From IMG/VR virus record IMGVR_UViG_3300026549_000048, positions 1 to 64,000 of that record: 64,000 nt of DNA. One strand, given 5' to 3'. Positions 1 through 64,000 of the stretch are shown in pieces. This stretch comes from a virus (lineage: Duplodnaviria > Caudoviricetes). The first letter of the stretch is position 1. Every line of letters starts with the position of its first letter. The notes under the pieces are model-generated. The model was not told the DNA's origin. It saw nothing but the letters and a program-made list of their open reading frames with translations, and ran no database searches. Made by a program: the position numbers and the translations under genes.

Positions 1-126
1 ACTACACCTACTACACCTACTACACCTACTACACCTACTACACCTACTACACCTACTACACCTACTACACCTACTACACCTACTACACCTACTACACCTA
101 CTACACCTACTACACCTACTACACCT
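1..126. repeat. Perfect 9-bp tandem repeat (ACTACACCT)x14, running off the window start
   Basis: Fourteen exact copies are read directly from 1-126, followed by a degenerate ATTACTACATAT. Confidence 0.98.
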
Positions 127-235: not shown

Positions 236-274
236 TCAAACCGAAATCTTTATATATTGGCTGTTACATAATAA
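236..274 (+). promoter_or_regulatory. Archaeal promoter (BRE CCGAAA + TATA TTTATATA at 249-256)
   Basis: TCAAACCGAAATCTTTATATATTGG; an identical 25-bp copy lies on the minus strand at 1999-2023. Confidence 0.85.
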
Positions 275-598: not shown

Positions 599-633
599 TG
601 ATGATCATATAAATTCATCATTATCTTTTTTTT
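597..633 (+). terminator. Hairpin plus oligo-T between convergent genes
   Basis: AATGATGA/TCATCATT stem (597-622) followed by a T8 run. Confidence 0.5.
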
Positions 634-751
634 CTTCTGTTTTTAATTGAACAACTTCGCGCTTACAGACTGGACAAATCCACTTTTCTACTACAATACC
701 ATTACGTTGAAATTCCATAAACGCGCCACACATAACACATCGTTTTATCAT
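605..751 (-). CDS. 48-aa Zn-ribbon microprotein (not in the ORF track)
   Basis: MIKRCVMCGAFMEFQRNGIVVEKWICPVCKREVVQLKTEEKKDNDEFI*; CxxC...CPxC; AGGTGA SD just upstream. Confidence 0.8.
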   Translation of the reverse strand: MIKRCVMCGAFMEFQRNGIVVEKWICPVCKREVVQLKTEEKKDNDEFI

Positions 752-960
752 TAAATCACCTAATTTTAATAATATTCAATGGTTTTTGCTTCCAGTTATT
801 AAGAGTTTTTTTAAAAAAAAAGAGACAAAAACAAAATGATCTTTGCCTCTTTGGTTGTGGTGAATTCTATGAAAAAATTAGTTTCCCTTCAGGGGCACAC
901 TCGCACCCCTTACGAAGCGAGAATTTATCTCATGGATTTAATGGGTATTCGCTACCCAAA

Positions 961-1031
961 CGAACTCGAGGGGAATCGAACCCCCATCGCAAGCTCCGAA
1001 GGCTTGTGTGCTTCCATTACACCACGAGTTC
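961..1031 (-). tRNA. tRNA-Arg(UCG)
   Basis: Acceptor stem GAACTCG/CGAGTTC; anticodon arm CAAGC-CTTCGGA-GCTTG; T-loop TTCGATT; no encoded CCA. Confidence 0.92.
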
Positions 1032-1118
1032 AACCTTCATCTTGCGACAAAGGTTTTCATTGATATTAAAGGAAGGTTACAAAGTATGAAACAACTTTGT
1101 TATGGGTAAAAACCCAAA

Positions 1119-1193
1119 TGGGCACGACAGGATTTGAACCTGCGATGTTCTGGTCTGGAGCCAGACAGAATAGCCTAACTATCTTACGCACCC
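1119..1193 (-). tRNA. tRNA-Trp(CCA), intronless
   Basis: Acceptor stem GGGTGCG/CGTGCCC plus A73; anticodon arm TCTGG-CTCCAGA-CCAGA; T-loop TTCAAAT. Confidence 0.9.
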
Positions 1194-1200
1194 AAACGGT

Positions 1201-1250
1201 AACTGAAGTGCAACCACTCCATCAACAAACACTCTTGCTGCACTTCAGTT
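1201..1250 (-). ncRNA. 12-bp perfect stem with 26-nt loop, candidate small RNA between tRNAs
   Basis: AACTGAAGTGCA (1201-1212) pairs with TGCACTTCAGTT (1239-1250). Confidence 0.45.
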
Positions 1251-1296
1251 TGTATTCGCATAGGAATTGATTATATGTCAGCACCAAGAGGTGCAA

Positions 1297-1371
1297 AGCC
1301 CTATTCCCAGATTCGAACTGGGGTAGAATCGGTTCAGAACCGATAGCGTAACCACTCCGCCAAATAGGGCT
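1297..1371 (-). tRNA. tRNA with CUG (Gln) anticodon and an atypical extended acceptor stem
   Basis: Anticodon arm ATCGG-TTCTGAA-CCGAT; T-arm CCCAG-TTCGAAT-CTGGG; the acceptor stem can pair 9 bp (AGCCCTATT/AATAGGGCT). Confidence 0.85.
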
Positions 1372-1446
1372 CGGAGGGGAACCCCCCTCCAGGATATTAT
1401 TAGCACTTTCAAAGGAGGTGAAAGAAACTATAACTTATTTAACTGC

Positions 1447-1541
1447 GAGTGTTTTTAACGAGGTTGGGGGCTCAGCCCTCATAGAGTTGATATTTTATTT
1501 GAACGAAGAGTGTTTTTAACGAGGTTGGGGTCTCAACCCTC
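1447..1541. repeat. 34-bp direct repeat, 2 copies (1447-1480, 1508-1541), 32/34 identical
   Basis: GAGTGTTTTTAACGAGGTTGGGG(G/T)CTCA(G/A)CCCTC, 61-bp period. Confidence 0.95.
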
Positions 1542-1583
1542 CATGAAATATATTTGGAGGCAATAAATCATGAATATTGCCAA

Positions 1584-1655
1584 AGTCATAGGGCGGAATC
1601 GAACCACCATTTTCTGCTTACGAGGCAGATGTAATAGCCATTATACTACTATAAC
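1584..1655 (-). tRNA. tRNA-Thr(CGU)
   Basis: Acceptor stem GTTATAG/CTATGAC plus U73; anticodon arm TCTGC-CTCGTAA-GCAGA; T-loop TTCGATT. Confidence 0.92.
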
Positions 1656-1659
1656 AACG

Positions 1660-1985
1660 GGGAAAAAGGGGGAATCACCCCCTTCATCTAATTCGTGTTT
1701 CTTCGAACAGTTAAGTCTAGGTTTTATTATGAATAGATTCGGCTTCCCAAGGATAGCTCCTGTAAGGAAGCCATATGAATAAGGGGTGTTCCCCAACACC
1801 CCAAAATCACCTAACCGCAATGACCCATAGGGGTTAAAAACCAACAACCATCACCATAAAGAATCAAAAAAGACCCTATGGATCATTCATGTTTGTTTTC
1901 CCATTTAACGTGTTTTTATTATGTACTTCAAAGTGTGTGACTTGGAAATACTATGCCTCAATGACGACTTCCCAGTCACATTACT
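1660..1985 (-). ncRNA. Structured ~320-nt leader or ncRNA upstream of the tRNA cluster
   Basis: Five GC-rich hairpins (1666-1684, 1741-1772, 1783-1802, 1819-1887, 1936-1980) in an AT-rich genome, starting about 25 nt downstream of a TATA box. Confidence 0.6.
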
Positions 1986-2023
1986 TATTATGTATGAACC
2001 AATATATAAAGATTTCGGTTTGA
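1985..2023 (-). promoter_or_regulatory. Archaeal promoter driving the ncRNA/tRNA cluster
   Basis: The reverse complement reads TCAAACCGAAATCTTTATATATTGG..TACATAATAA, matching the promoter at 236-274. Confidence 0.85.
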
Positions 2024-2027
2024 TTTT

Positions 2028-3116
2028 TCAGGATTTGTATTTTAACTGTAAAATTTTCTGAAATTCTTTTATATCAAAATTGTCCAACCAGACCCTCTCT
2101 ATTTTTCTTTCTTCAAATGGGTTTATGACTCCTTCATCTCCCTCTAAAGTATAAAAGGTAGGCTGACTTGATCCGCGAAGATTTGCAACAAGCTCTCCTT
2201 TATTCTTGAAACAATAAACCAAGCTTGTTTTTGACCAGTTGAACCATCTGTTTTCAAAAAAGTCTTCTCGACACCCTCTAACCAATAATCCATTTGTTGA
2301 ATTAGCCTTCAATAGTTTACCAGCCTCTAAAACACTACGCCAACTCCACGCCTTAATAAATGGAGCCACTTCATATTCGGTGCATTTATATCCAAATTTT
2401 AATCTATTTTCAAGGGGCAAATCAGTAAACCATGTGTCATTAATTTTAATCACATCAATGATTTTGTTGTTTGACACTAAAAATAACCCCTCTCCATATC
2501 CATGACATTCTGCTTTTTCAACCTTTATGTCACGATGATGTTCCATTACAATGAAAGGTGCAATCATTCCATCACATAATCTCCATATATGTGGAATCCT
2601 AATAGGTTTCTCATCATTCAATGAAATGATACTTTCGGTGGCTGTCTTGATACTTTTTCTGCTGTTTTTTAAATCTGGTTTTGCCCTATTGAATACAAAA
2701 CCATTTCCGTTAAGAATTTGATTAAACACATCAAAAGCATCGTGCTGATTTTCATAAACGTGAACGGCCTTAGTGTAATCGAACCAAAATCCTCTGTACA
2801 ATAATTTTAAAATTTCAAAAAAACTAAATTGACCTTGATATGTAATGCAATCAATACGATTCTCATTTGCCTGTCCTTCAAACACCTCTTTACAAGTTAA
2901 ATCCATATCGAATTTTAAATCAGGATTATAATAATCAGAACATAACAAGGCAAAGCCGTAGGGATCGCACATATCATGGTAAAAATTAGGATATTTACCT
3001 TGTCTTACTTTGTCGTAAAAAGAATTAAATAGCTCAAGAAAAGTGCGCACATTTTGAGTAACGCCTCTTCTTTCTTTATGGATTGAGCCTCTTAATAGAT
3101 AACTATCTTTTAACAT
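2028..3116 (-). CDS. Hypothetical protein; C-terminal half resembles a degenerate ATP-dependent ligase adenylation domain
   Basis: IIDVIKINDTWFTDLPLENRL resembles motif IIIa/PLxER; NGLLVR resembles EGxVxK; RWFNWSK resembles WxKxK; no KxDG. Confidence 0.5.
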   Translation of the reverse strand: MLKDSYLLRGSIHKERRGVTQNVRTFLELFNSFYDKVRQGKYPNFYHDMCDPYGFALLCSDYYNPDLKFDMDLTCKEVFEGQANENRIDCITYQGQFSFFEILKLLYRGFWFDYTKAVHVYENQHDAFDVFNQILNGNGFVFNRAKPDLKNSRKSIKTATESIISLNDEKPIRIPHIWRLCDGMIAPFIVMEHHRDIKVEKAECHGYGEGLFLVSNNKIIDVIKINDTWFTDLPLENRLKFGYKCTEYEVAPFIKAWSWRSVLEAGKLLKANSTNGLLVRGCREDFFENRWFNWSKTSLVYCFKNKGELVANLRGSSQPTFYTLEGDEGVINPFEERKIERVWLDNFDIKEFQKILQLKYKS

Positions 3117-3306
3117 TTATATCGCCCTCTAAAATTTGAAGTAAAAGCCTTGCTACTTTAATATCATCTATAGTAGCTTGACATTCGGCTAAACTTCGTC
3201 CAATAATTTTAGCACAGCGATTAGTTCTTCCACTTTTATGATATGCGTAGCAATACTTAACCAATGATTTCAGTTTTTCATCATCATTCATCTTCATTTT
3301 TATCAC
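3103..3306 (-). CDS. Small hypothetical protein
   Basis: Overlaps both neighbours within the operon. Confidence 0.6.
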   Translation of the reverse strand: MIKMKMNDDEKLKSLVKYCYAYHKSGRTNRCAKIIGRSLAECQATIDDIKVARLLLQILEGDINVKR

Positions 3307-3973
3307 AATGTGGGCAAAATACTAAACATCCTTTTTGCTTTTTGTCTTTGGAGCCAACTCCATGAATGGAAAAGAATTTACTGATTTTACGTGGAGTGAC
3401 CCTTAATTGACCGCTAACATCATATCTATTAAGCATACGATCCATTAATTGATCTGCCGTGAGACACACTTCATCTAAATACAGTATTCTTAATGCCGTC
3501 CAATAATAATCATCATATCTTGCAATAGCTCTATGAAAATAATCATTATTGAACAAATCAAAATTACCTAATCTGTTTGAAATGGTGTTGCGTTCCAATC
3601 CAAGTATTTTTACCCAAAATTGGACATCTTCATGGAAACAATACAATAAACAAATGTCTTCTGTATAGACCTTTGTCTTTTTATGTCTTCCTTTCTTGTT
3701 TTGCAAGTCATTGAAAACATTGTAACCATTCTTAGGATTAAGTAGTTCTTCATTGTTTATTAATCTATCGAAATCTTCAATGCAATCATCACTTTCAATG
3801 GTATAGAACTCAAAATTATACCTGAACCAATCTTTTTGCAATAATTTATTATAATGTTTATTGTCGTCAAGGGCTCTATATAAAAATTGTTTTAACACCT
3901 TTTCTTCTAAATTTGTTTTCCCAATGAATTTTTTATTGTTTTTTTTATTAACGAGAGCATATAAGTAGCCCAT
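3284..3973 (-). CDS. GIY-YIG-domain protein (degenerate) with C-terminal HTH-like region and CxxC
   Basis: GYLY...FIGKT, HYNKLLQKDW, NGYN; AGGTGA SD; ends CPHC. Confidence 0.7.
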   Translation of the reverse strand: MGYLYALVNKKNNKKFIGKTNLEEKVLKQFLYRALDDNKHYNKLLQKDWFRYNFEFYTIESDDCIEDFDRLINNEELLNPKNGYNVFNDLQNKKGRHKKTKVYTEDICLLYCFHEDVQFWVKILGLERNTISNRLGNFDLFNNDYFHRAIARYDDYYWTALRILYLDEVCLTADQLMDRMLNRYDVSGQLRVTPRKISKFFSIHGVGSKDKKQKGCLVFCPHCDKNEDE

Positions 3974-3981
3974 TATATCAC

Positions 3982-5304
3982 CTATCTATCGCCAGCAGTT
4001 GACTTTTTTGAACTGTCTTTTGATTTATCAGGGTCGCTTCCATCTCGCTTTTTAGGTTCATCTACTTTTGTTTTTTGAGAAGTAGGGTCAGTTTGATTAC
4101 CATTTCCCGTCTCATATTGAATACTTCTCACTTTAAATATCTCCTTCAATTCATCGGTAACCCCTGGAGCAGCACCTCTATATCCAAGTTCTAATCTTGC
4201 CTCATTTGGAGTAATAAAACCCATTTCTACAGAAGTTTTAACTTCAATGATTTTATCACTTGGCAGTTCGGTTGTTGCTCTTGGAAATGCAATATAAACG
4301 TTATGATAATCTTTTCCTCTTTCATATCCTTTTTTGCTTAAAAATGGAATATAATATTCTTCTGCAAGATAATCATTTAATATCGCCCTATATTTATTGA
4401 CTTTAATCATAAATACAGCGGCCTGAGTTTTACCACCGCTAAGGTTACTGATTTGACCACCCATTAAGGATTCAGGCACACCTAACATACCCAAATCTTT
4501 CCTTGAAGCATCTAAAATATTAATTAAATGCCCAATATCATTTGCAAAACTTAATGTACGTGGTTCAATACGTGAATCAAGAACTAAATCATCTCCAGCA
4601 GCAAGCTGATGATGCAATGTTCTTTCAATTCTTTTTAAAAATGTATCTTGATTTTGTGTTTGAACATCGGTTACATCTACAGCCCATTGAACGATTGGGA
4701 TTGCATAACGATTAAGCACTTCTGCTAAATCTCGCCTATTATTTAAAAATTCAACTAATGTATCCTGCAATGAGTTAACAAAACTATTACCATATAGCTC
4801 ACCGATATTTGGATCATGAGCATAAATTTTAATATCATCTGGGGGTATATGCAAAGTCTGATTATTGTAAGAGTAAGTCCAGTATTCTATCATTCCATAA
4901 TTTGGATGTCCAAGATCATAAAATTTTGGCTGTACATCTCCAGGATGTAATAAAAAGATTTCCTCTGGATCTCCGTCCTCATCTACATTACCACAATAAT
5001 CTAATGCGGTTCCATGTAATAAATACCATTTTTCAAGCTCTGCTAAATGAGTACGATTGATAACCTGACTGATTTTTCTGCATTCCTGTTCCAATTCAGG
5101 CATACGTTTTCCATCTAATCCTTCAACCGTTAATGTAAAATAAGGTGGAATAATATTTGCAATTAATGTTTGTATGATAGAATTAAGTACAGTTCTTTGA
5201 TATAAACCTTCAATGATAGTATAAGTTAATCGAATTGGGGCATATGGATTTCCATATAATCGACTTGATGGACGATGTTTTCTAATCATAATTTTTTGCG
5301 TCAT
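3982..5304 (-). CDS. Portal protein
   Basis: Directly after TerL; YLLHGTA, YGNS, LGVPESLMG and GFITPNEARLELG portal motifs. Confidence 0.9.
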   Translation of the reverse strand: MTQKIMIRKHRPSSRLYGNPYAPIRLTYTIIEGLYQRTVLNSIIQTLIANIIPPYFTLTVEGLDGKRMPELEQECRKISQVINRTHLAELEKWYLLHGTALDYCGNVDEDGDPEEIFLLHPGDVQPKFYDLGHPNYGMIEYWTYSYNNQTLHIPPDDIKIYAHDPNIGELYGNSFVNSLQDTLVEFLNNRRDLAEVLNRYAIPIVQWAVDVTDVQTQNQDTFLKRIERTLHHQLAAGDDLVLDSRIEPRTLSFANDIGHLINILDASRKDLGMLGVPESLMGGQISNLSGGKTQAAVFMIKVNKYRAILNDYLAEEYYIPFLSKKGYERGKDYHNVYIAFPRATTELPSDKIIEVKTSVEMGFITPNEARLELGYRGAAPGVTDELKEIFKVRSIQYETGNGNQTDPTSQKTKVDEPKKRDGSDPDKSKDSSKKSTAGDR

Positions 5305-5307
5305 ATT

Positions 5308-6810
5308 TTATCCTCGTTTATTATAATTTTTAGGTTTGTATGTACTATCATTAAATATGTTCATTCCCAATCCACCTATATAATATGGAGTTATTCTTTT
5401 TGGGCCGTCCTCAAGATATTTTGTGATAGCCATATTACATAATGTAAATGAATCGATAAAGTCATCGGATTCTCCTTTTTTATATACAGTTCTATCATTA
5501 TCAGTTGTTTCCCTAATATACTCACTCATTTCTTTGTTTAGCTTTTTGTGTGGGTAATATGTAACAAAACGACTTTCTAAATTATTAATGGTATTTTCTA
5601 CAAGATTAACCTTTTGAGGTTGTGAAAAGATAATATCATATATTGAAAATGGAGCCGCTCGATCAATCTGCTCAGCAATTGCCTGTCCGACTCCAGTTGC
5701 ATCAATACAAAGAGCTTGAAGTTGTGGAAATCGTAATGGTAATATCTGATTAATGTAATGCGTAATTGTTTGATATTTTGTTCCTAATTCCCAATATTTG
5801 TAATACAATATTTCCCAATTGTTTGTTCGAGTATCTTGCACCCCAACAGTTAAAACAGAATTGTTTCTTCTTTTACCAAAATCAATACCAGCGCATGCGA
5901 TACGAGTATCCTCAAAAAAGCGTGGTTCTTTTCTGATTCCAGCCATATCACGTAATCCTGCATAAAATGGAATACTAATATCATCTACAAAATCCAAACA
6001 AAATTCTCGTCTGAATTTTTCTATTCCTATAGTATTTCTAATGGTTTCAAGCTCAGAAATTGGCAATCTATGAGGGGCTCGAGAATATAATATATTACCG
6101 TCTTCGTCCATATCAGTAATTTGAAATCTATGCAAACTATAATCCCCATTATTTGGACATGGCTTTGCCTTTCCGTTATTAACATAGCATTCCCTAATGC
6201 TTTTTGCATTTTTAATATTCTCATAGAAAAATCCAGTTTTTCCTCTTGGTGTTCCACTAAAAACCATTTCTGCCTGACCTAATTGCCCAGTAACAGCAGG
6301 AATAATTGTAGCCAAAGCATCGGCATCTAAAGATTGACATTCATCTAAATATAATGTGTTAAAACCACTTCCAACTAAAGCTGAGTCCTCTTTTTTACCA
6401 GATTGAGCTCCAGCTGTAGCGAACTTAATTCTTGTTCCATTTGTAAGTTCTTTACTCATTTTATTTAATGTTTCAAAACTTGATTGTAGCAAACTACTTC
6501 TTTTGACAATCCCATCGAATGTTGTAGCGAATTCTTTTGCCTGATCCCCAGTTGGAGCAACAAGAGTAAGTAATTGGTTTTTTCTAAAAAATGATTTATG
6601 TAAAATGTCTGCAACCATAACCAATGTTTTGCCGCTACGACGGGAACAAAATAAAATTTTATATGGACTTTGATCTCGTAAAAATAATTTTTGTTGAGGT
6701 TCTAATTTATATTTTTTTCCTTCTTGGTTGTAGCAAAAATTTTCTATAAAAAAAACTGGATCTTTTTTGGCTTTTAAAAGAGTTAATTTAAGTTTTTTAT
6801 CGTTTTCCAT
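5308..6810 (-). CDS. terL: Terminase large subunit
   Basis: Walker A SRRSGKT, Walker B LYLDE, SGTP coupling motif, nuclease GIDFG...DDFIDS. Confidence 0.96.
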   Translation of the reverse strand: MENDKKLKLTLLKAKKDPVFFIENFCYNQEGKKYKLEPQQKLFLRDQSPYKILFCSRRSGKTLVMVADILHKSFFRKNQLLTLVAPTGDQAKEFATTFDGIVKRSSLLQSSFETLNKMSKELTNGTRIKFATAGAQSGKKEDSALVGSGFNTLYLDECQSLDADALATIIPAVTGQLGQAEMVFSGTPRGKTGFFYENIKNAKSIRECYVNNGKAKPCPNNGDYSLHRFQITDMDEDGNILYSRAPHRLPISELETIRNTIGIEKFRREFCLDFVDDISIPFYAGLRDMAGIRKEPRFFEDTRIACAGIDFGKRRNNSVLTVGVQDTRTNNWEILYYKYWELGTKYQTITHYINQILPLRFPQLQALCIDATGVGQAIAEQIDRAAPFSIYDIIFSQPQKVNLVENTINNLESRFVTYYPHKKLNKEMSEYIRETTDNDRTVYKKGESDDFIDSFTLCNMAITKYLEDGPKRITPYYIGGLGMNIFNDSTYKPKNYNKRG

Positions 6811-6811
6811 A

Positions 6812-7282
6812 TTATAATTCCTTCAAGAACGCTTCAATATCCTCATTTGATAGATCGTCCTCGATATTTACTTGTGATTCCGTTTCATAATCATCGTCTG
6901 GTTGTATTTTTCTATACTCATCAATATTTGAGTTATCATTAAAACCATTGGAAGTGTTGTAACCTATATTCGGATCTGTTGTTCCATATAAATCAATATA
7001 ATGAGCCTCAACAAGCATTAAGTCTTCTTCTGGGACGTTATCAGCTAAAATAGCTACATCAAATGCTTGTTTTCCATGTTTTCTAATACCCCTTGATAAA
7101 CAGTAATTATATGTAGGACTATCTTTAGTAAAAGCTTCTCTTATATGTTCCTGAAACCTTCTTCTTACTATTTGATAGGGCTCCTTTTCATCACTATCAT
7201 TTCTAATGGTTTTACCGATATAGTATTTTCCGTTGGCAAAATTTTTGATAATATAGATACAACCATTGTTATTTTCTTCCAT
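6812..7282 (-). CDS. GIY-YIG endonuclease with acidic C-terminal tail, directly upstream of TerL
   Basis: GCIY...YYIGKT, RRRFQEH, EAHYI, GYN: catalytic residues appear intact. Confidence 0.88.
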   Translation of the reverse strand: MEENNNGCIYIIKNFANGKYYIGKTIRNDSDEKEPYQIVRRRFQEHIREAFTKDSPTYNYCLSRGIRKHGKQAFDVAILADNVPEEDLMLVEAHYIDLYGTTDPNIGYNTSNGFNDNSNIDEYRKIQPDDDYETESQVNIEDDLSNEDIEAFLKEL

Positions 7283-14840: not shown

Positions 14841-15296
14841 ATGGCTAATGAAAATTCAACTCGTCTCTGGGTAAATGGTTATATTTTGCTCGGACAAAAA
14901 ACCCGTATCGAGGTAGAAGAAGTATCTGTCGATTTATCTCGAGATTTAAAAGAACATTACAACTCTGGAATTTCCAAACCAAATGCTTTAATCCCTGGTC
15001 AAGAAAAAATTGATTTTAAAATCAAAAGAATTTTTTCTGATGTTACATTAGCTAAAATCTACGAAAAAAGATGTTCTTTTTCAATGATTTTATTCAACAA
15101 CTCTTCAGACCCAGGAAATAATACCACCGGTGAACAAGTATGTGCATTAAGTGGATGTATGCTCTCTAAAGAATCCTTAAGTGGATTAGGTAGAGGAGAT
15201 GCAGTAACTGAAGATGTTGACGGAAAAGCATTAGATATTACTTGGAATATCACAGAAATTGCAAAAATGATTAACCCTGCTTGTGCAAACTTGTAG
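14841..15296 (+). CDS. Tail tube protein
   Basis: 151 aa, immediately after the sheath, beta-rich pattern. Confidence 0.8.
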   Translation: MANENSTRLWVNGYILLGQKTRIEVEEVSVDLSRDLKEHYNSGISKPNALIPGQEKIDFKIKRIFSDVTLAKIYEKRCSFSMILFNNSSDPGNNTTGEQVCALSGCMLSKESLSGLGRGDAVTEDVDGKALDITWNITEIAKMINPACANL

Positions 15297-22455: not shown

Positions 22456-23759
22456 GTTCTTTGCCTCCAGCTGACCCTAGGGTTGATACAAGCGAGAAAA
22501 CAACTTCTGCTTATTTAAAAATCAATCAGTCTCGATTAAAATCAATCAATCCTTTATTGGGAAAAACAGATACGACAGATAACACTCCTAATAATAAAGT
22601 TAGAGTAAAAGTATATACACCATTTGATGATAAAACTCATACATATTTTCATTCTATGTCTATCGATAAAGACGTTGCAGATTTTATGGGTACAGCAGAA
22701 TTACGATGCCCATATGATAGCGATTTAATGGCTTATTGGGAACCTGCTCGAGCTTATTGTGTAATTTATGGAACCAATCGAGGAGATTATAAAGTATTAT
22801 TTATTGGTAGAGTGAGAGAGGTTAACCAACAAGGTTATGAAATTGTAATAGCATTACAGGATTATGGCTGGAAATTTAAACAACTAATTACTCAATCATA
22901 TGCAAACGACAACGTTATCGGCAAAGACGGTTACACAATAATGAAATTGATGTTTCAGGCTTTGAAAATTGATTCTTGGGTTGTAACGCCAACGGCGAAA
23001 TATAGATTAAAGCAGGTTGGTATTGATGAAGATGGAAATGTAACTTTAAACAAGAAAGAAATTGAACAAATGCCAGATTTACTTAATCGTCTTAAGAAAA
23101 CAGATCCACGTCATGCGATTAATAAATATACAGTATATAACAAAATGAAAGAATCAGAATTACATAACCTCAATAATATTAATTATACTTTACGATATGA
23201 GAAACCTACGAAAATTATGAAAAAAACGGCAAAGGAAAGTAATTACAGTAAGGGAGCAAGTATGTATGGAACTAACTACGGTAGCAGCGGAGGAAGTAGT
23301 AGCGGAGGTGGTGGCTCTGGAGGATCATCCTCTAAAAGTAAATCATCCAAAACTATGACCGCATCTGGGACACGAAGACCTCCTGCTAATTTATGTTCAA
23401 ATATTAAAAGTGAAAGCGTTAGAGCCGCTATGAAAGTTATTTGGTCATATCAAAGAGGGTACACTAATAGTTTATCAAGTGCAAGTTCTGTAATTTATGA
23501 GTATGCTAGAAATTATCCAAGTGTATATTGGGCACAATTAGCCCCATGTCTTAGCACACTCTCAAAATGGGTTTCAAGGAGCAATAAACATAATGGTGCT
23601 GCTTCTGTTAAAGCTAATGCAGATAATGCTGCACGTAAAGGACAAACAAATCCATTAGGTAGAAGAAGTACGCGTAGGTCAGCTGGAAATCAAAGACATC
23701 CTACCTCTAAATCCAATAAAGGTTGGAGTTTTAATATTTTTGGAATAAGGTTTGGTTAG
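22452..23759 (+). CDS. Baseplate hub, N-terminal part, plus Gly/Ser linker and basic C-terminal domain
   Basis: LFIGRVREV...ALQDYGWKF resembles gpD/XkdQ-type hubs. Confidence 0.55.
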   Translation: MSSLPPADPRVDTSEKTTSAYLKINQSRLKSINPLLGKTDTTDNTPNNKVRVKVYTPFDDKTHTYFHSMSIDKDVADFMGTAELRCPYDSDLMAYWEPARAYCVIYGTNRGDYKVLFIGRVREVNQQGYEIVIALQDYGWKFKQLITQSYANDNVIGKDGYTIMKLMFQALKIDSWVVTPTAKYRLKQVGIDEDGNVTLNKKEIEQMPDLLNRLKKTDPRHAINKYTVYNKMKESELHNLNNINYTLRYEKPTKIMKKTAKESNYSKGASMYGTNYGSSGGSSSGGGGSGGSSSKSKSSKTMTASGTRRPPANLCSNIKSESVRAAMKVIWSYQRGYTNSLSSASSVIYEYARNYPSVYWAQLAPCLSTLSKWVSRSNKHNGAASVKANADNAARKGQTNPLGRRSTRRSAGNQRHPTSKSNKGWSFNIFGIRFG

Positions 23760-60850: not shown

Positions 60851-61548
60851 TAAATCCCCTCATAAAATATTTTTGCAGCTTCTTTTATATCAGCAATTGT
60901 TGCATCACCAATACCATTTAGTTTTTTTAAATCTGATCGAGATGCTGTAAATACTTTTTCAGGAGTTTTAAATTCTTTTAATAATAATAAAGCTGTTTTT
61001 TGACCAACTTTATTTGCTAACATAACAAAATCTACATCTTTTCTATTTTTCAATGTAGTTATTTGTTTTGTCTGTAACTGTTCTCCATTATGTTTATTAA
61101 TTGTTTCAGCTAATCGTAATATTTCCTGAAAATATTGAGCTTCATTTTTTACAAAAAAGACGGGGCATTTATATACCATTTCCATTGTACGAACCATTTT
61201 GTCAATAGATTGCTGTTTAATATGTTTTACAGCTGGATATTTTCTTGCAATACGTTGCAAGTCATTAATACTACCATGAACAATTACACAATAATTATTT
61301 GAGACTTTATTCATACGTTGTGCCTGATCTTGTAAATGACCACTAATATATGAAGTAACAAAATCCCCATATGATTTTCGTTCAATATTAAGATATTGTT
61401 TGCTTGTTAATAAACAAGCAACATCTCCAAAATCACCAAGCATTTTTTCTTCAACGTCAATTTTTTTTGTTTTAAAAAACGCTACAGATTTTTTCTTCAT
61501 ATCTAATTCTTTTTTATCAACATAGGCCTTAATCACTTCTGGATGCAT
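60850..61548 (-). CDS. ERCC4/XPF-family structure-specific nuclease with HhH motifs
   Basis: GD...IERKS..DF..S...GHL..Q; VGQKTA and GIGDA helix-hairpin-helix motifs. Confidence 0.9.
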   Translation of the reverse strand: MHPEVIKAYVDKKELDMKKKSVAFFKTKKIDVEEKMLGDFGDVACLLTSKQYLNIERKSYGDFVTSYISGHLQDQAQRMNKVSNNYCVIVHGSINDLQRIARKYPAVKHIKQQSIDKMVRTMEMVYKCPVFFVKNEAQYFQEILRLAETINKHNGEQLQTKQITTLKNRKDVDFVMLANKVGQKTALLLLKEFKTPEKVFTASRSDLKKLNGIGDATIADIKEAAKIFYEGI

Positions 61549-61939
61549 TTTCCTCTCCCTCATTTATAATATCTTGAAAATAATTATCAAAAAAGTGTAC
61601 AAAAAATTTTCTAATATAATCACAATTAAGAAGAAGTGGAGCTATACCAAAATCTTCGCCTGTCCACGGATAATCAATGCAAAATTGACTAATCGGATCA
61701 TCATGTCTTGTACATAAATTTGTTTCTTCATCAAAATCTAAGCATCTTTGTGCTCGACAACAACGACCACATCGACTACAAGCATCAAATTCTATGACCT
61801 CTTCACGTGTAATATATTTTGCATTATGATACATTATATCTTCAATTTTTTCGTTTTTAAATTCTCGTGATAATTCTGGAAATTCATGAGAATAAAATTC
61901 TTTAAACCAATTAATACATTTCTTTGTGCTTGTATCCAT
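61529..61939 (-). CDS. YkgJ-like Cys-cluster (Fe-S/Zn) protein
   Basis: CSRCGRCC...C...C..H...C..YP. Confidence 0.8.
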   Translation of the reverse strand: MDTSTKKCINWFKEFYSHEFPELSREFKNEKIEDIMYHNAKYITREEVIEFDACSRCGRCCRAQRCLDFDEETNLCTRHDDPISQFCIDYPWTGEDFGIAPLLLNCDYIRKFFVHFFDNYFQDIINEGEENASRSD

Positions 61940-64000
61940 TAATGAACCTCCAAAATATTTAAAAACGTTTCATGTTCCATCAGGAAAAATACATATGAAC
62001 CCTCAACCATTAAATGTGGGGGATATTCTTCCGATCCAACCTCAATTTTTCCATCAAGAACTGTTTCTTCATTAATAATGAGATTATATCTCACACATGG
62101 ATTTCCATTTTTACTTGTAAAATATTTTACATCGGTTGCTACCCCACAAGGAACATTATTATTTTTTTGCAAAGATTGCACAATTTTAATAGCTTCCCCA
62201 CTATATAACCAATACTCATGTTGATATTTACTTGGATCATCTAAATTAATCAAAGATAGCAATGACCATTTTGTACCTTTTCCATTTACGTGTAATAATA
62301 ATGGAGTTCCCACTTCAAATGCTTCAACATATCTTGGAATGAATTCTTTTTCAACAAATAAAGAAACAACTTCAAATCCATCTGTTACACTTAAATATGC
62401 GTAATCTTTATTATCTTTATATTCTGTAACTAATCCTTTAATATAACAGTCATAATAATCATCTGTATGCTTAAATAATCCTGAAATAGAAGATAAATCA
62501 ATGTTAATATTCATTTCAGATAAATTATATAAATCTAAAACGTTACCTTTTGGATTAATTTTAATTCTTTGAAATTCTCTAAAGAGTGTTTCTTGTTCAT
62601 TCCAATCATCTGTTTCTTCGATTGTTTTATAAAGTGCACATCTATCTGTATTAAAACAATCAAAAGCTCCACATTCAATTAAAGCCTTTTTTACTGTTTT
62701 GTTTACTTTAGTTCTTTCGCAAAAATCTTCAAAAGATTTATATGGCTGATTAGCAATAATTTTTGGAACAGCCGCTGGACCAATTCCTTTTACCAAACTA
62801 AAGGATAAATAAATATTATTATCATCTTCCATAGTAATATCTTTTGATTGATTGATGTGAGGATTAACAATATCTTTTCCAAGATTACGTAATTCATTAT
62901 ACAATTTTGCTTTCTTTTCTTCTTTATCTGTATTGTTTAAACAAGAAAGTAAAAACTCAACTGGATAATATGTTCTCAACCAAGCAAAAATATATGTTAA
63001 AGCAGTATACCCAACACAATGAGCTTTATTAAAAGAATAAGAAGCAGATGCTTCCATTTTCGCCCACACTTTTTCAGCTATAGCGGAATCAATACCTCGA
63101 CTTGTACAAGATGCAATAAATTTTGGATAATATTCATCAAATATATATTGTAATTTTTTACCAATACCTTTTCTAATTAAATCAGCATCAACCGCACTCA
63201 TACCTGCAAAATCAGTTACAATGTGCATAGCATCTTCCTGATATACAATACAACCATATGTATCTTTTAAAATTGGTTCAAGCAAAGGATGATCATATTC
63301 AATAGGAATTTCCCCATGTTTCCTCTTTATATATAATTCGGTATCTCCAGAATCATTTGGTCCAGGTCTACATAATGCAACAACAGCAGCCAATTCATCA
63401 AAATTCTGTGGTTGCATTTTCTGACAAACTTCTGTTGCGGCTGGAGATTCAATTTGGAACATTCCCAATGTTGTTTGACAAATTGTTTGAAAAACCTTAG
63501 GATCATTATATTGTAATGGTAATGATACGCCTGGAAGTAAATCTAAACAATCTGCAATAATATCCAAACTGTTTAATCCTAATGTATCATTCTTAAGAAA
63601 ACCTAATGAATCCGCAGTCTTTCCATTATTATCCAAACAATCAACACCATTGACTCTAATAATTGAATCACGATATTCTACGTCCTGATCTAAAATTACC
63701 ATTGCTCCTGCATGAACACCATAATTCTTTAGCATTCCTGTTAATTTTGGATAATTTTCTTTAATGAAAGGGTGAGCGTCTAAATAATTTACAACATCTG
63801 GAATACTTTCAATATCATCGGTATCCCCAATCATTTTTGAGATTTTCTTTCTCAAGTCAAATGGAACTCCAGATACACGACCTAAATCATCAATTGCAAC
63901 TTTTTTCGTCCATCTCACTTGATTAATTACTTGATAAGTTCTATCATGACCAAAATCATCCTTAATGATTTTTAACACTTCTTTTCTTCTTTTTTTGCTA
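61939..64000 (-). CDS. dnaE: Family C DNA polymerase (Pol III alpha, DnaE-like), 5'-truncated by the window
   Basis: RRKEVL, GVHAGA, LKNDTLGL (catalytic Asp), GMFQIES, ALCRPGP, TYGCIVYQE, YSFNKAH, YYPVEF, KGIG; frame open to the window end. Confidence 0.95.
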   Translation of the reverse strand, partial: SKKRRKEVLKIIKDDFGHDRTYQVINQVRWTKKVAIDDLGRVSGVPFDLRKKISKMIGDTDDIESIPDVVNYLDAHPFIKENYPKLTGMLKNYGVHAGAMVILDQDVEYRDSIIRVNGVDCLDNNGKTADSLGFLKNDTLGLNSLDIIADCLDLLPGVSLPLQYNDPKVFQTICQTTLGMFQIESPAATEVCQKMQPQNFDELAAVVALCRPGPNDSGDTELYIKRKHGEIPIEYDHPLLEPILKDTYGCIVYQEDAMHIVTDFAGMSAVDADLIRKGIGKKLQYIFDEYYPKFIASCTSRGIDSAIAEKVWAKMEASASYSFNKAHCVGYTALTYIFAWLRTYYPVEFLLSCLNNTDKEEKKAKLYNELRNLGKDIVNPHINQSKDITMEDDNNIYLSFSLVKGIGPAAVPKIIANQPYKSFEDFCERTKVNKTVKKALIECGAFDCFNTDRCALYKTIEETDDWNEQETLFREFQRIKINPKGNVLDLYNLSEMNINIDLSSISGLFKHTDDYYDCYIKGLVTEYKDNKDYAYLSVTDGFEVVSLFVEKEFIPRYVEAFEVGTPLLLHVNGKGTKWSLLSLINLDDPSKYQHEYWLYSGEAIKIVQSLQKNNNVPCGVATDVKYFTSKNGNPCVRYNLIINEETVLDGKIEVGSEEYPPHLMVEGSYVFFLMEHETFLNILEVH

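What the first reader, a model, noticed from the sequence alone, without database searches (positions are those of the whole stretch)
1406..1424. Anti-Shine-Dalgarno sequence displayed in a hairpin loop
Seen: on the transcribed minus strand, CUUUCA-CCUCCUU-UGAAAG forms a 6-bp stem whose loop is the anti-SD. UCACCUCCU matches the 16S rRNA 3' end. On the plus strand the perfect SD AAAGGAGGTGA has no start codon downstream. Inference: a viral sRNA that masks GGAGG ribosome-binding sites, possibly favouring GGTGA-led or leaderless viral mRNAs over host mRNAs.
Basis: partly seen in the sequence, partly recalled or inferred. Interest (0 to 1): 0.7.

Follow-up and report, generated by a model that had tools for sequence, protein, structure and literature searches.

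The report
Anti-ribosome-site hairpin in archaeal-virus tRNA array
A small RNA hairpin that displays the same sequence as the ribosome's mRNA-docking tail sits between two tRNA genes of a 121-kb virus of rumen methanogens; the same motif recurs on the tRNA strand in related viruses, so it is probably functional, but what it does is only inferred.

Summary
The hairpin is real. On the minus strand, 1424-1406 reads CUUUCA-CCUCCUU-UGAAAG. It lies in the 213-nt spacer between tRNA-Thr and tRNA-Gln of a four-tRNA array, downstream of a BRE/TATA-type promoter.

The genome is most likely an archaeal (Methanobacteriales) virus, not a bacterial phage.

The hairpin alone is not beyond chance at the scale of the window. 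In 20 related tRNA arrays, however, CACCUCC occurs 11 times on the tRNA strand, against 0.46 expected, and its reverse complement never occurs there. These copies are mostly predicted to be unpaired. They sit either in hairpin loops (window, L044, L020) or as an invariant AUCACCUCCUU tail, behind hairpins of unrelated sequence, directly before tRNA-Tyr.

No plus-strand ORF follows the "SD" sequence.

I checked a lead from an earlier scan note. Kolesnikvirus phages (phiEa21-4) carry a CCUCCUU-loop hairpin in a tRNA spacer, and its stem is different in related phages. The scan has also noted similar elements on other DNA (e1-5750600, e1-2640597).

The best reading is a spacer-derived anti-SD RNA module, at about 35%. 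A cis processing role, a protein decoy and chance all remain open. No RNA data could be obtained.

The parts
1406..1424 (-). Core hairpin: 6-bp stem CUUUCA/UGAAAG with the 7-nt loop CCUCCUU (anti-SD)
   Evidence: Read directly; present in the MFE and centroid folds of the whole spacer and of the 39-nt piece.
1396..1434 (-). Extended hairpin: an outer 8-bp helix (two G.U pairs, one bulge) around the core
   Evidence: -6.7 kcal/mol, z -3.0. A 49-nt piece around the motif folds to -7.7 kcal/mol on the tRNA strand and -5.7 on the opposite strand.
1371..1583 (-). 213-nt tRNA-Thr to tRNA-Gln spacer that carries the hairpin
   Evidence: tRNA coordinates from ARAGORN and Rfam. No Rfam family reaches threshold in the spacer.
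1373..1390 (-). GC hairpin GGAGGGG-GGUU-CCCCUCC, ending 2 nt before tRNA-Gln
   Evidence: Nearly every tRNA of the virus family is preceded by such a hairpin, with a G-rich 5' arm and a C-rich 3' arm.
1447..1541 (-). Two copies of a 34-nt element (1508-1541 and 1447-1480). A single copy is conserved after tRNA-Thr in relatives.
1584..1655 (-). tRNA-Thr(CGU), the conserved first tRNA of the array
1297..1370 (-). tRNA-Gln(CUG)
1118..1194 (-). tRNA-Trp(CCA)
960..1032 (-). tRNA-Arg(UCG)
1999..2021 (-). BRE/TATA-like promoter motif AAACCGAAATCTTTATATATTGG heading the RNA locus
   Evidence: the same 23-mer (up to 6 mismatches) lies 30-50 nt upstream of SD+ATG, in the gene's orientation, at 238(+), 70410, 72399, 85720 and 109870(-). 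It is conserved in relatives.
819..852 (-). Terminator-like hairpin followed by a T9 run, closing the array

Best explanation
The hairpin is a structured element of the primary transcript of a viral tRNA array. The transcript probably starts at the BRE/TATA promoter at 2021-1999 and ends near 819. The virus most likely infects a methanogen of the Methanobacteriales.

The hairpin shows CCUCCUU, the core of the 16S rRNA 3' tail, in an apical loop. It is one instance of a motif, (U/A)UCACCUCCU, that this virus family keeps on the tRNA strand of its arrays. The motif occurs either in hairpin loops or as a single-stranded tail that RNase P cleavage would leave at the 3' end of the tRNA-Tyr leader.

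The most likely mechanism is inferred, not shown. tRNA processing would release the spacer or leader as a small RNA whose exposed anti-SD pairs with GGAGG-type ribosome-binding sites and modulates translation initiation. In the window copy the UCA of UCACC is locked in the stem, so only GGAGG-type sites would be bound, not GGUGA-type sites.

Shown: sequence, fold, strand, genomic context, recurrence, predicted accessibility.
Inferred: transcription, release, stability, pairing partners and effect.
For: - Location and strand: the hairpin lies between tRNA-Thr and tRNA-Gln, co-oriented with four tRNAs, downstream of a promoter motif used five more times in the genome.
- Fold: the loop is unpaired in the MFE and centroid structures, z = -3.0.
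- Family-wide signal: 20 dereplicated related arrays give 21.7 kb of tRNA-masked spacer. CACCTCC occurs 11 times in 9 loci against 0.46 expected. CACCTCCT occurs 10 times against 0.13. The reverse complement on the same strand occurs 0 times.
- Accessibility: the mean predicted unpaired probability is 0.68 for CACCUCC-type sites and 0.21 for other CCUCC sites, which mostly lie in GGAGG/CCUCC stems.
- Loop-type relatives: L044 has a 10-bp stem with two G.U pairs, the loop ACCUCC and then U7; it folds to -12.1 kcal/mol on the tRNA strand and -3.0 on the opposite strand. L020 has an 8-bp stem and the loop CCUCCUAC. The window, L044 and L020a share UUUCACCUCC..GAA(A).
- tRNA-Tyr leaders of L012, L018, L026 and L043: the 9-12-bp hairpins differ in sequence (z -4.2 to -5.6), while the following AUCACCUCCUU is invariant.
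- An unrelated lineage: in Kolesnikvirus phages the tRNA-Asp/Ser spacer hairpin has its stem TTAAACG/CGTTTAA in phiEa21-4 replaced by ACAGTG/CACTGT in SE5, Coenus and Ep030, yet keeps a CCUCCUU loop.
- Precedent in methanogens: M. mazei sRNA41 is proposed to mask ribosome-binding sites (PMC5867862).
Against:
- No positional orthologue of the window hairpin was found in the closest relatives that reach this spacer (L040, L030). Homology with L044 and L020a rests on about 14 shared nucleotides.
- The hairpin alone is expected by chance about once per two windows.
- Few viral genes have GGAGG SDs (8 of 137), and host SD usage is unknown, so no target set is defined.
- The tail-type copies would also pair with the virus's own AGGUGAU SDs.
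- Strand preference from folding energies is mixed across instances.
- The tRNA-Tyr leaders can also pair with GGUGA in that tRNA's own D-loop, which points to a cis role there (read from the sequences; consistent).
Confidence: 0.35

Rival explanations
1. Cis-acting structural or processing element. The hairpin is one of the many spacer hairpins that organise folding and cleavage of the tRNA precursor. The CCUCC loop would work within the transcript. It could pair alternately with the GGAGG arms of neighbouring GC hairpins (1390-1384, 1541-1537) or, in the tRNA-Tyr leaders, with GGUGA of the D-loop. It could also be a cleavage site for the host nuclease that makes the 16S 3' end (Nob1).
For: - Nearly every tRNA in the family is preceded by a hairpin.
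- The spacer holds two GGAGG and three CCUCC on the same strand.
- Tyr-leader copies end 0-4 nt before the RNase P site, and their predicted accessibility drops when the tRNA body is included in the fold.
- Archaeal Nob1 cleaves short RNAs carrying the 16S D-site at the mature 3' end (PMC3326319).
Against: - An invariant 9-11-nt match to the 16S tail is more than a generic processing hairpin needs.
- The window copy is 35 nt from the tRNA-Gln 5' end, and another hairpin lies between them.
- L014's Tyr leader keeps CCUCCUU, but its D-loop has no GGUGA.
Confidence: 0.25
2. Chance or neutral. The window hairpin is an incidental AU-rich spacer hairpin whose loop happens to read CCUCCUU. The recurrence in relatives reflects a few inherited sites and the pyrimidine-rich composition of the spacers.
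For: - About 0.5 such hairpins are expected per 64-kb window on two strands (scaled).
- There is no orthologue in L040 or L030.
- Four of the 11 CACCUCC copies are one homologous tRNA-Tyr leader.
Against: - At least 8 separate sites carry the motif, the enrichment is 24-fold, and the strand count is 11 to 0.
- Loop or tail placement goes with high predicted accessibility.
- The stem differs around the same loop in an unrelated phage genus.
Confidence: 0.15
3. Protein decoy. The RNA mimics the 16S rRNA 3' minidomain (a hairpin plus a GAUCACCUCCU tail). It would titrate a factor that binds or cuts that tail, such as an assembly factor like Nob1 or Dim2, or an anti-SD-cleaving toxin of a host defence system.
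For: - The tail-type copies consist of a stable hairpin followed by a single-stranded AUCACCUCCUU. After RNase P cleavage this would end in a free 3' OH, like helix 45 plus the tail of 16S.
- The identity extends beyond the SD-pairing core: L018 has AUCACCUCCUUUCU, 14 nt.
Against: - This is pure inference. No candidate toxin or binding protein was identified here.
- The window copy holds the motif in a closed loop, not a tail.
Confidence: 0.1
4. DNA-level promoter element. The 3' arm (GAAAG) and the AU-rich stretch after it (GCTAATAATAT) form a weak internal BRE/TATA promoter for tRNA-Gln. The anti-SD likeness would then be incidental.
For: - In L044 the hairpin's 3' half reads CCGAAAT + TATTATTTT. 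The CCGAAAT matches the BRE-like part of the main promoter motif (CCGAAATC + TTTATATA).
- In the window the AT-rich octamer ends about 23 nt before tRNA-Gln +1.
Against: - The window spacing differs by 3 nt and its BRE match is poor.
- L020a has no TATA-like stretch.
- This does not explain the conserved CACCUCC or the Tyr-leader and Kolesnikvirus copies.
Confidence: 0.08
5. Plus-strand Shine-Dalgarno, live or relic. AAAGGAGGTGA serves, or once served, a small plus-strand ORF.
For: - It is a perfect extended SD.
- The only other AAGGAGGTGA in the genome (115874, minus) lies on the strand of the neighbouring candidate ORFs; I did not check whether it is a gene's SD.
- In L012 and L026 the equivalent motif is followed by ATG after 4 nt.
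Against: - The window has no start codon 3-13 nt downstream.
- Among 12 instances only 4 have a start at a usable spacing, which equals the chance rate of about 0.33. The micro-ORFs are 6-20 codons long and not conserved.
- Plus-strand transcription from the 238 promoter meets a hairpin plus T-run at about 598-645 (read).
- L044's stem has two G.U pairs that become C.A on the other strand.
Confidence: 0.07

Closest known systems
Methanosarcina mazei sRNA41 (Buddeweg et al. 2018, as summarised in PMC5867862), and bacterial C/U-rich anti-SD sRNAs such as streptococcal csRNAs and RsaE/RoxS (the bacterial examples are from my own knowledge)
   Same: An exposed pyrimidine-rich motif complementary to ribosome-binding sites. 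The proposed action is masking of RBSs. The precedent is in a methanogen.
   Different: Those are chromosomal, independently transcribed sRNA genes with mapped targets. This element is viral, embedded in a tRNA precursor, has no shown transcript and has no defined target.
E. coli 3'ETS-leuZ and the metZWV internal spacers (tRNA-spacer-derived regulatory RNAs; Lalaouna et al. 2015, from my own knowledge)
   Same: A regulatory pairing module carried in a transcribed spacer of a tRNA operon and released by tRNA processing.
   Different: Those act as sponges for specific Hfq-dependent sRNAs (RyhB, RybB). Here the exposed sequence is the generic anti-SD, in an archaeal virus.
CCUCCUU-loop hairpin in the tRNA-Asp/tRNA-Ser spacer of Kolesnikvirus phages (Erwinia phage phiEa21-4, EU710883 23120-23150). 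I found no publication on it; the lead came from scan note e1-5750600.
   Same: It lies on the same strand as the tRNAs and in a tRNA spacer. The loop contains UUUCACCUCCUU (phiEa21-4). The stem is a different sequence in related phages.
   Different: The host is bacterial and the phage lineage is unrelated. An invariant SD plus a 9-codon micro-ORF lies about 25 nt upstream in that spacer. Its function is equally unknown.
Phage T4 species 1 and 2 RNAs (rnaC, rnaD)
   Same: Small stable non-tRNA RNAs encoded in and processed from a viral tRNA cluster.
   Different: rnaC is tRNA-like, and neither RNA has a CCUCC motif. The window spacer has no T-arm.
3' minidomain of 16S rRNA (helix 45 plus the GAUCACCUCCU tail)
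   Same: Sequence identity of 9-14 nt. The tail-type copies in relatives have the same arrangement, a hairpin followed by a single-stranded tail.
   Different: It is not part of a ribosome, and there is no homology beyond the tail. In the window the motif is in a loop.

Membership tests
Trans-acting RBS-masking (anti-SD) small RNA | Exposed C/U-rich motif complementary to the SD, in a loop or single-stranded stretch | tested here: met
   The loop CCUCCUU is unpaired in the MFE and centroid folds. Predicted unpaired probability is 1.0.
Trans-acting RBS-masking (anti-SD) small RNA | A discrete, stable transcript (own promoter and terminator, or defined processing) | not testable with these tools
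The element lies inside a tRNA precursor and is followed by neither a terminator nor a U-run.
Trans-acting RBS-masking (anti-SD) small RNA | Defined target mRNAs whose RBS pairs with the seed | tested here: inconclusive
   Only 8 of 137 viral genes have GGAGG upstream. The best duplexes are with 14841-15296 and 99891-100190 (-10.8 kcal/mol). No host genome was available.
Trans-acting RBS-masking (anti-SD) small RNA | Seed conserved across relatives while the stems vary | tested here: inconclusive
   The motif is enriched 24-fold and is strand-specific. Similar loop hairpins occur in L044 and L020, and the Tyr leaders are invariant behind hairpins of different sequence. No strict orthologue of the window copy was found.
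tRNA-spacer-derived regulatory RNA (3'ETS/ITS type) | Lies in a transcribed spacer of a tRNA operon, on the tRNA strand | tested here: met
tRNA-spacer-derived regulatory RNA (3'ETS/ITS type) | Released by tRNA processing, accumulates, and pairs with defined RNAs | not testable with these tools
   Needs RNA-seq, Northern blots or interactome data.
Shine-Dalgarno site of a plus-strand (micro-)ORF | A start codon about 4-12 nt downstream opening a conserved frame | tested here: not met
   No ATG, GTG or TTG 3-13 nt after GGAGG. Relatives: 4 of 12 have one, which is the chance rate, and the ORFs are 6-20 codons and not conserved.
Any Rfam 15 family | A match at or near the gathering score | tested here: not met
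   Only the four tRNAs match. In the spacer the best hit is the R1162 antisense RNA on the plus strand, 19.7 bits against a gathering score of 55, E 0.27.
Intrinsic or oligo-U terminator | A hairpin followed by a run of U | tested here: not met
   It is not among the terminator-like sites. The sequence after the stem is GUGCUAAUAAU. L044's copy is followed by U7.
T4 rnaC/rnaD-type tRNA-like stable RNA | tRNA-like T-arm and acceptor features | tested here: not met
   No tRNA or tmRNA signal in 1360-1600 at E up to 10. The T4 RNAs lack CCUCC.

The most novel reading that the evidence does not exclude
Viruses of both bacteria and archaea build mimics of the 16S rRNA 3' tail into their tRNA arrays. 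The mimics are shown either in hairpin loops or as the 3' end of RNase P-released leaders. They would be made in bulk along with the tRNAs and act as competitors or decoys, for SD-bearing mRNAs, for factors that bind the 16S tail (Nob1/Dim2), or for defence nucleases that cut the anti-SD. This would be a general, undescribed arm of viral takeover of translation.
Probability: 0.15. Interest if true: 0.8.

Novelty: new variant of a known kind. Interest (0 to 1): 0.55.

Why it matters
If the motif is functional, tRNA arrays of viruses are not just tRNA suppliers. They would also carry regulatory or decoy RNAs aimed at the ribosome's mRNA-docking step.

It would give a first candidate regulatory RNA for a virus of rumen methanogens, a group with almost no molecular data. 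It would also link it to a similar loop hairpin in cultured Erwinia and Salmonella phages (Kolesnikvirus), where the idea can be tested at the bench at once.

The family-wide data also show that this group of roughly 120-kb archaeal viruses has unusually elaborate tRNA loci, with a hairpin before each tRNA, intron-bearing tRNAs and tRNA-like fragments.

Tried and rejected
- DNA search of the locus against cultured phages found no match.
- IMG/VR holds only one or two relatives, and the closest contig ends before the array.
- An exact scan of IMG/VR for the 34-nt repeat found nothing.
The archaeal SSU search returned no control loci. I therefore could not read a Methanobrevibacter 16S 3' end or measure host SD usage.
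- The genome-contig scan gave only two MAG-binned contigs, labelled Alistipes and Bacilli, which I do not trust as host calls.
- Cluster names and the protein atlas gave no host information.
It was dominated by one family of roughly 45-kb phages in which the motif may be an opposite-strand SD. It is uninterpretable, so the control scans were not run.
- Strand preference from MFE differences is mixed across instances.
- A tRNA-like reading of the window spacer is rejected: no T-arm and no Rfam signal.
- A box C/D guide reading of the plus strand is rejected: no CUGA or UGAUGA boxes next to 1406-1424 (read).
- One relative (P0004) has no retrievable DNA.
- Two literature searches found no description of anti-SD hairpins in viral tRNA arrays. 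A search for methanogen GGTGA RBS usage gave nothing usable.

Full report
**Observation**

The plus strand at 1406-1424 reads CTTTCA AAGGAGG TGAAAG. On the minus strand this is a perfect 6-bp stem with the loop CCUCCUU. UCACCUCCUUU matches the 16S rRNA 3' tail; that tail sequence is from my own knowledge.

The loop stays open when the whole 213-nt spacer is folded. A 39-nt piece adds an outer helix with two G.U pairs and folds to -6.7 kcal/mol, z -3.0, with 1 of 200 shuffles as good.

The plus strand has no start codon at a usable distance. The only one is a GTG that overlaps the SD at 1418.

In shuffles of the 1.28-kb locus, such a hairpin appears in 28 of 5000 and the 9-mer in 24 of 5000. 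This is rare for the locus. Over 64 kb on two strands it is not, so the hairpin alone proves nothing.

**Context**

The hairpin lies in a minus-strand array: tRNA-Thr(CGU) 1584-1655, tRNA-Gln(CUG) 1297-1370, tRNA-Trp 1118-1194 and tRNA-Arg(UCG) 960-1032. All neighbouring genes from 605 to 7282 are on the minus strand: a 362-aa ORF, a GIY-YIG-like protein, portal and TerL.

The window is the first 64 kb of a 121,120-bp IMG/VR virus record.

A 23-nt motif, AAACCGAAATCTTTATATATTGG, occurs at 2021-1999 (minus), ahead of the array. It also lies 30-50 nt upstream of SD+ATG of five genes, always in the gene's orientation.

A hairpin plus T9 at 852-819 closes the unit.

**Host**

Five observations point to an archaeal host of the Methanobacteriales, probably a rumen Methanobrevibacter. 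I put this at about 85%.

- TerL's only strong match among 50,697 phage records is Methanobacterium virus PhiF1 (36% identity, E 2e-70; the next best is 3e-8).
- The relatives come from bovine and rumen assemblies.
- Their tRNA-Tyr is class I with C1:G72, the archaeal identity pair.
- One relative has a tRNA-Pro with a 41-nt intron.
- Viral genes use AGGTGAT-type SDs.

The virus also carries a bacterial-type DNA polymerase III alpha, which I take as an acquired gene.

**Relatives**

The 362-aa ORF has 88 homologues. I fetched their loci. tRNA-Thr(CGU) is conserved downstream of the ORF; the other tRNAs vary.

In 20 dereplicated arrays (21.7 kb of spacer with tRNAs masked), counts on the tRNA strand are:

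| Motif | Observed | Expected |
|---|---|---|
| CACCTCC | 11 (in 9 loci) | 0.46 |
| CACCTCCT | 10 | 0.13 |
| TCACCTCC | 9 | 0.16 |
| Reverse complement of each | 0 | not computed |

These rank among the most enriched words, alongside T-arm fragments and promoter words.

The copies are predicted to be accessible, with a mean unpaired probability of 0.68. Other CCUCC sites average 0.21 and mostly form GGAGG/CCUCC stems.

The copies appear in two formats.

1. Loop type:
   - the window;
   - L044 (10-bp stem with two G.U pairs, loop ACCUCC, then U7);
   - L020 (8-bp stem, loop CCUCCUAC; a second copy has a UUUCAC/GUGAAA stem).

   The window, L044 and L020a share UUUCACCUCC..GAA(A), and each is followed by a GC hairpin.
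2. Tail type: in L012, L018, L026 and L043, a 9-12-bp hairpin of quite different sequence (z -4.2 to -5.6) is followed by an invariant single-stranded AUCACCUCCUU that ends 0-4 nt before C1 of tRNA-Tyr. L014 keeps CCUCCUU there. In L018 the identity to the 16S tail runs 14 nt.

**The opposite-strand reading fails**

Of 12 instances, 4 have a start codon 3-13 nt after the "SD", which equals the chance rate. The frames are 6-20 codons long and not conserved.

**An unrelated lineage**

An earlier scan note (e1-5750600) named a Kolesnikvirus hairpin, and I checked it.

- Erwinia phage phiEa21-4 has CTTAAACG-TTTCACCTCCTTG-CGTTTAAG in its tRNA-Asp/tRNA-Ser spacer, on the tRNA strand.
- The spacer is shared by 36 phages.
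- In SE5, Coenus and Ep030 the hairpin is the most diverged part of the spacer. The stem is replaced by ACAGTG/CACTGT, while the loop keeps CCCUCCUU.

T4's rnaC and rnaD have no such motif. I found no published description.

**Mechanism**

The data show a strand-specific, accessible motif that is at least partly under selection in viral tRNA transcripts. They do not show what it binds.

I favour a spacer- or leader-derived anti-SD pairing module, at about 35%. It follows the principle of M. mazei sRNA41 and the biogenesis of the E. coli tRNA-spacer RNAs.

In the loop-type copies the UCA of UCACC is held in the stem. The tail-type copies would bind both.

The rivals are:
- a cis folding or processing role, including cleavage by the 16S 3'-end nuclease Nob1, which cuts short D-site RNAs;
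- a protein decoy that mimics helix 45 plus the tail;
- an internal BRE/TATA element (L044 reads CCGAAAT+TATTATTTT);
- a relic plus-strand SD;
- chance.

Expression could not be tested.

**Verdict**

This is a new variant of known kinds (anti-SD sRNAs, tRNA-spacer RNAs). Interest is moderate to high because the motif recurs across a virus family and in a cultured phage genus where it can be tested.

Noticed in passing
window 1-126 and genome end (G000 121001-121120): Fourteen copies of ACTACACCT. The record's 120-bp 'direct terminal repeat' is this tandem array at both ends, so the terminal repeat may be assembly closure through a repeat.
   Followed up: partly
window 238-260 (+), 1999-2021 (-); genome 70410, 72399, 85720, 109870 (-): A 23-nt BRE/TATA-like promoter motif, AAACCGAAATCTTTATATATTGG, lies 30-50 nt upstream of SD+ATG. 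It is identical over 23 nt in many relatives whose proteins are only 60-75% identical.
   Followed up: partly
window 1508-1541 and 1447-1480 (-): A duplicated 34-nt element (GAGGG.UGAG.CCCCAACCUCGUUAAAAACACUC). A single copy is conserved right after tRNA-Thr in L040, L018 and L012. Its function is unknown.
   Followed up: partly
window 960-1700 and loci L012-L046: Almost every tRNA of the family is preceded, 3-12 nt upstream, by a hairpin with a G-rich 5' arm and a C-rich 3' arm. The polarity is consistent and unexplained.
   Followed up: no
L026 2556-2670; spacers of L012 (5899-5965, 6017-6112, 6443-6488), L013, L020, L028, L042, L044: L026 has a tRNA-Pro(AGG) with a 41-nt intron. L012 has an extra tRNA that only Rfam calls. 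Several spacers hold T-arm/acceptor fragments or tRNA-like minihelices that ARAGORN does not call. In L012 one of them carries an anti-SD loop at the tip of a long hairpin.
   Followed up: partly
L035 (889-959 nt downstream of the ORF362 homologue): A tRNA with anticodon UUA (ochre-suppressor type) in a related virus.
   Followed up: no
window 55997-63978 (-): This probable archaeal virus encodes a bacterial-type DNA polymerase III alpha, NrdD with its radical-SAM activase, and an ERCC4/XPF-HhH2 nuclease.
   Followed up: no
window 1850-1857 (-) and 14 of 20 related arrays: The 8-mer GGUGAUGG is conserved in the leader between the promoter and tRNA-Thr. It resembles both an SD followed by AUG and box C of C/D sRNAs.
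   Followed up: no
L051 (EU710883) 23050-23090: The Kolesnikvirus tRNA-Asp/Ser spacer holds an invariant GAGGTGA SD plus a 9-codon micro-ORF about 25 nt upstream of its anti-SD hairpin. In phiEa21-4 the two can pair over 8 bp.
   Followed up: no
L057 2167-2221 and about 100 similar IMG/VR loci: A family of roughly 45-kb phages has a T-arm-like piece, the hairpin GCCATCT..AGATGGC and then TCACCTCCTTGATTAAGG. An opposite-strand 57-codon TTG frame starts 6 nt after the motif, so its meaning is unclear.
   Followed up: partly
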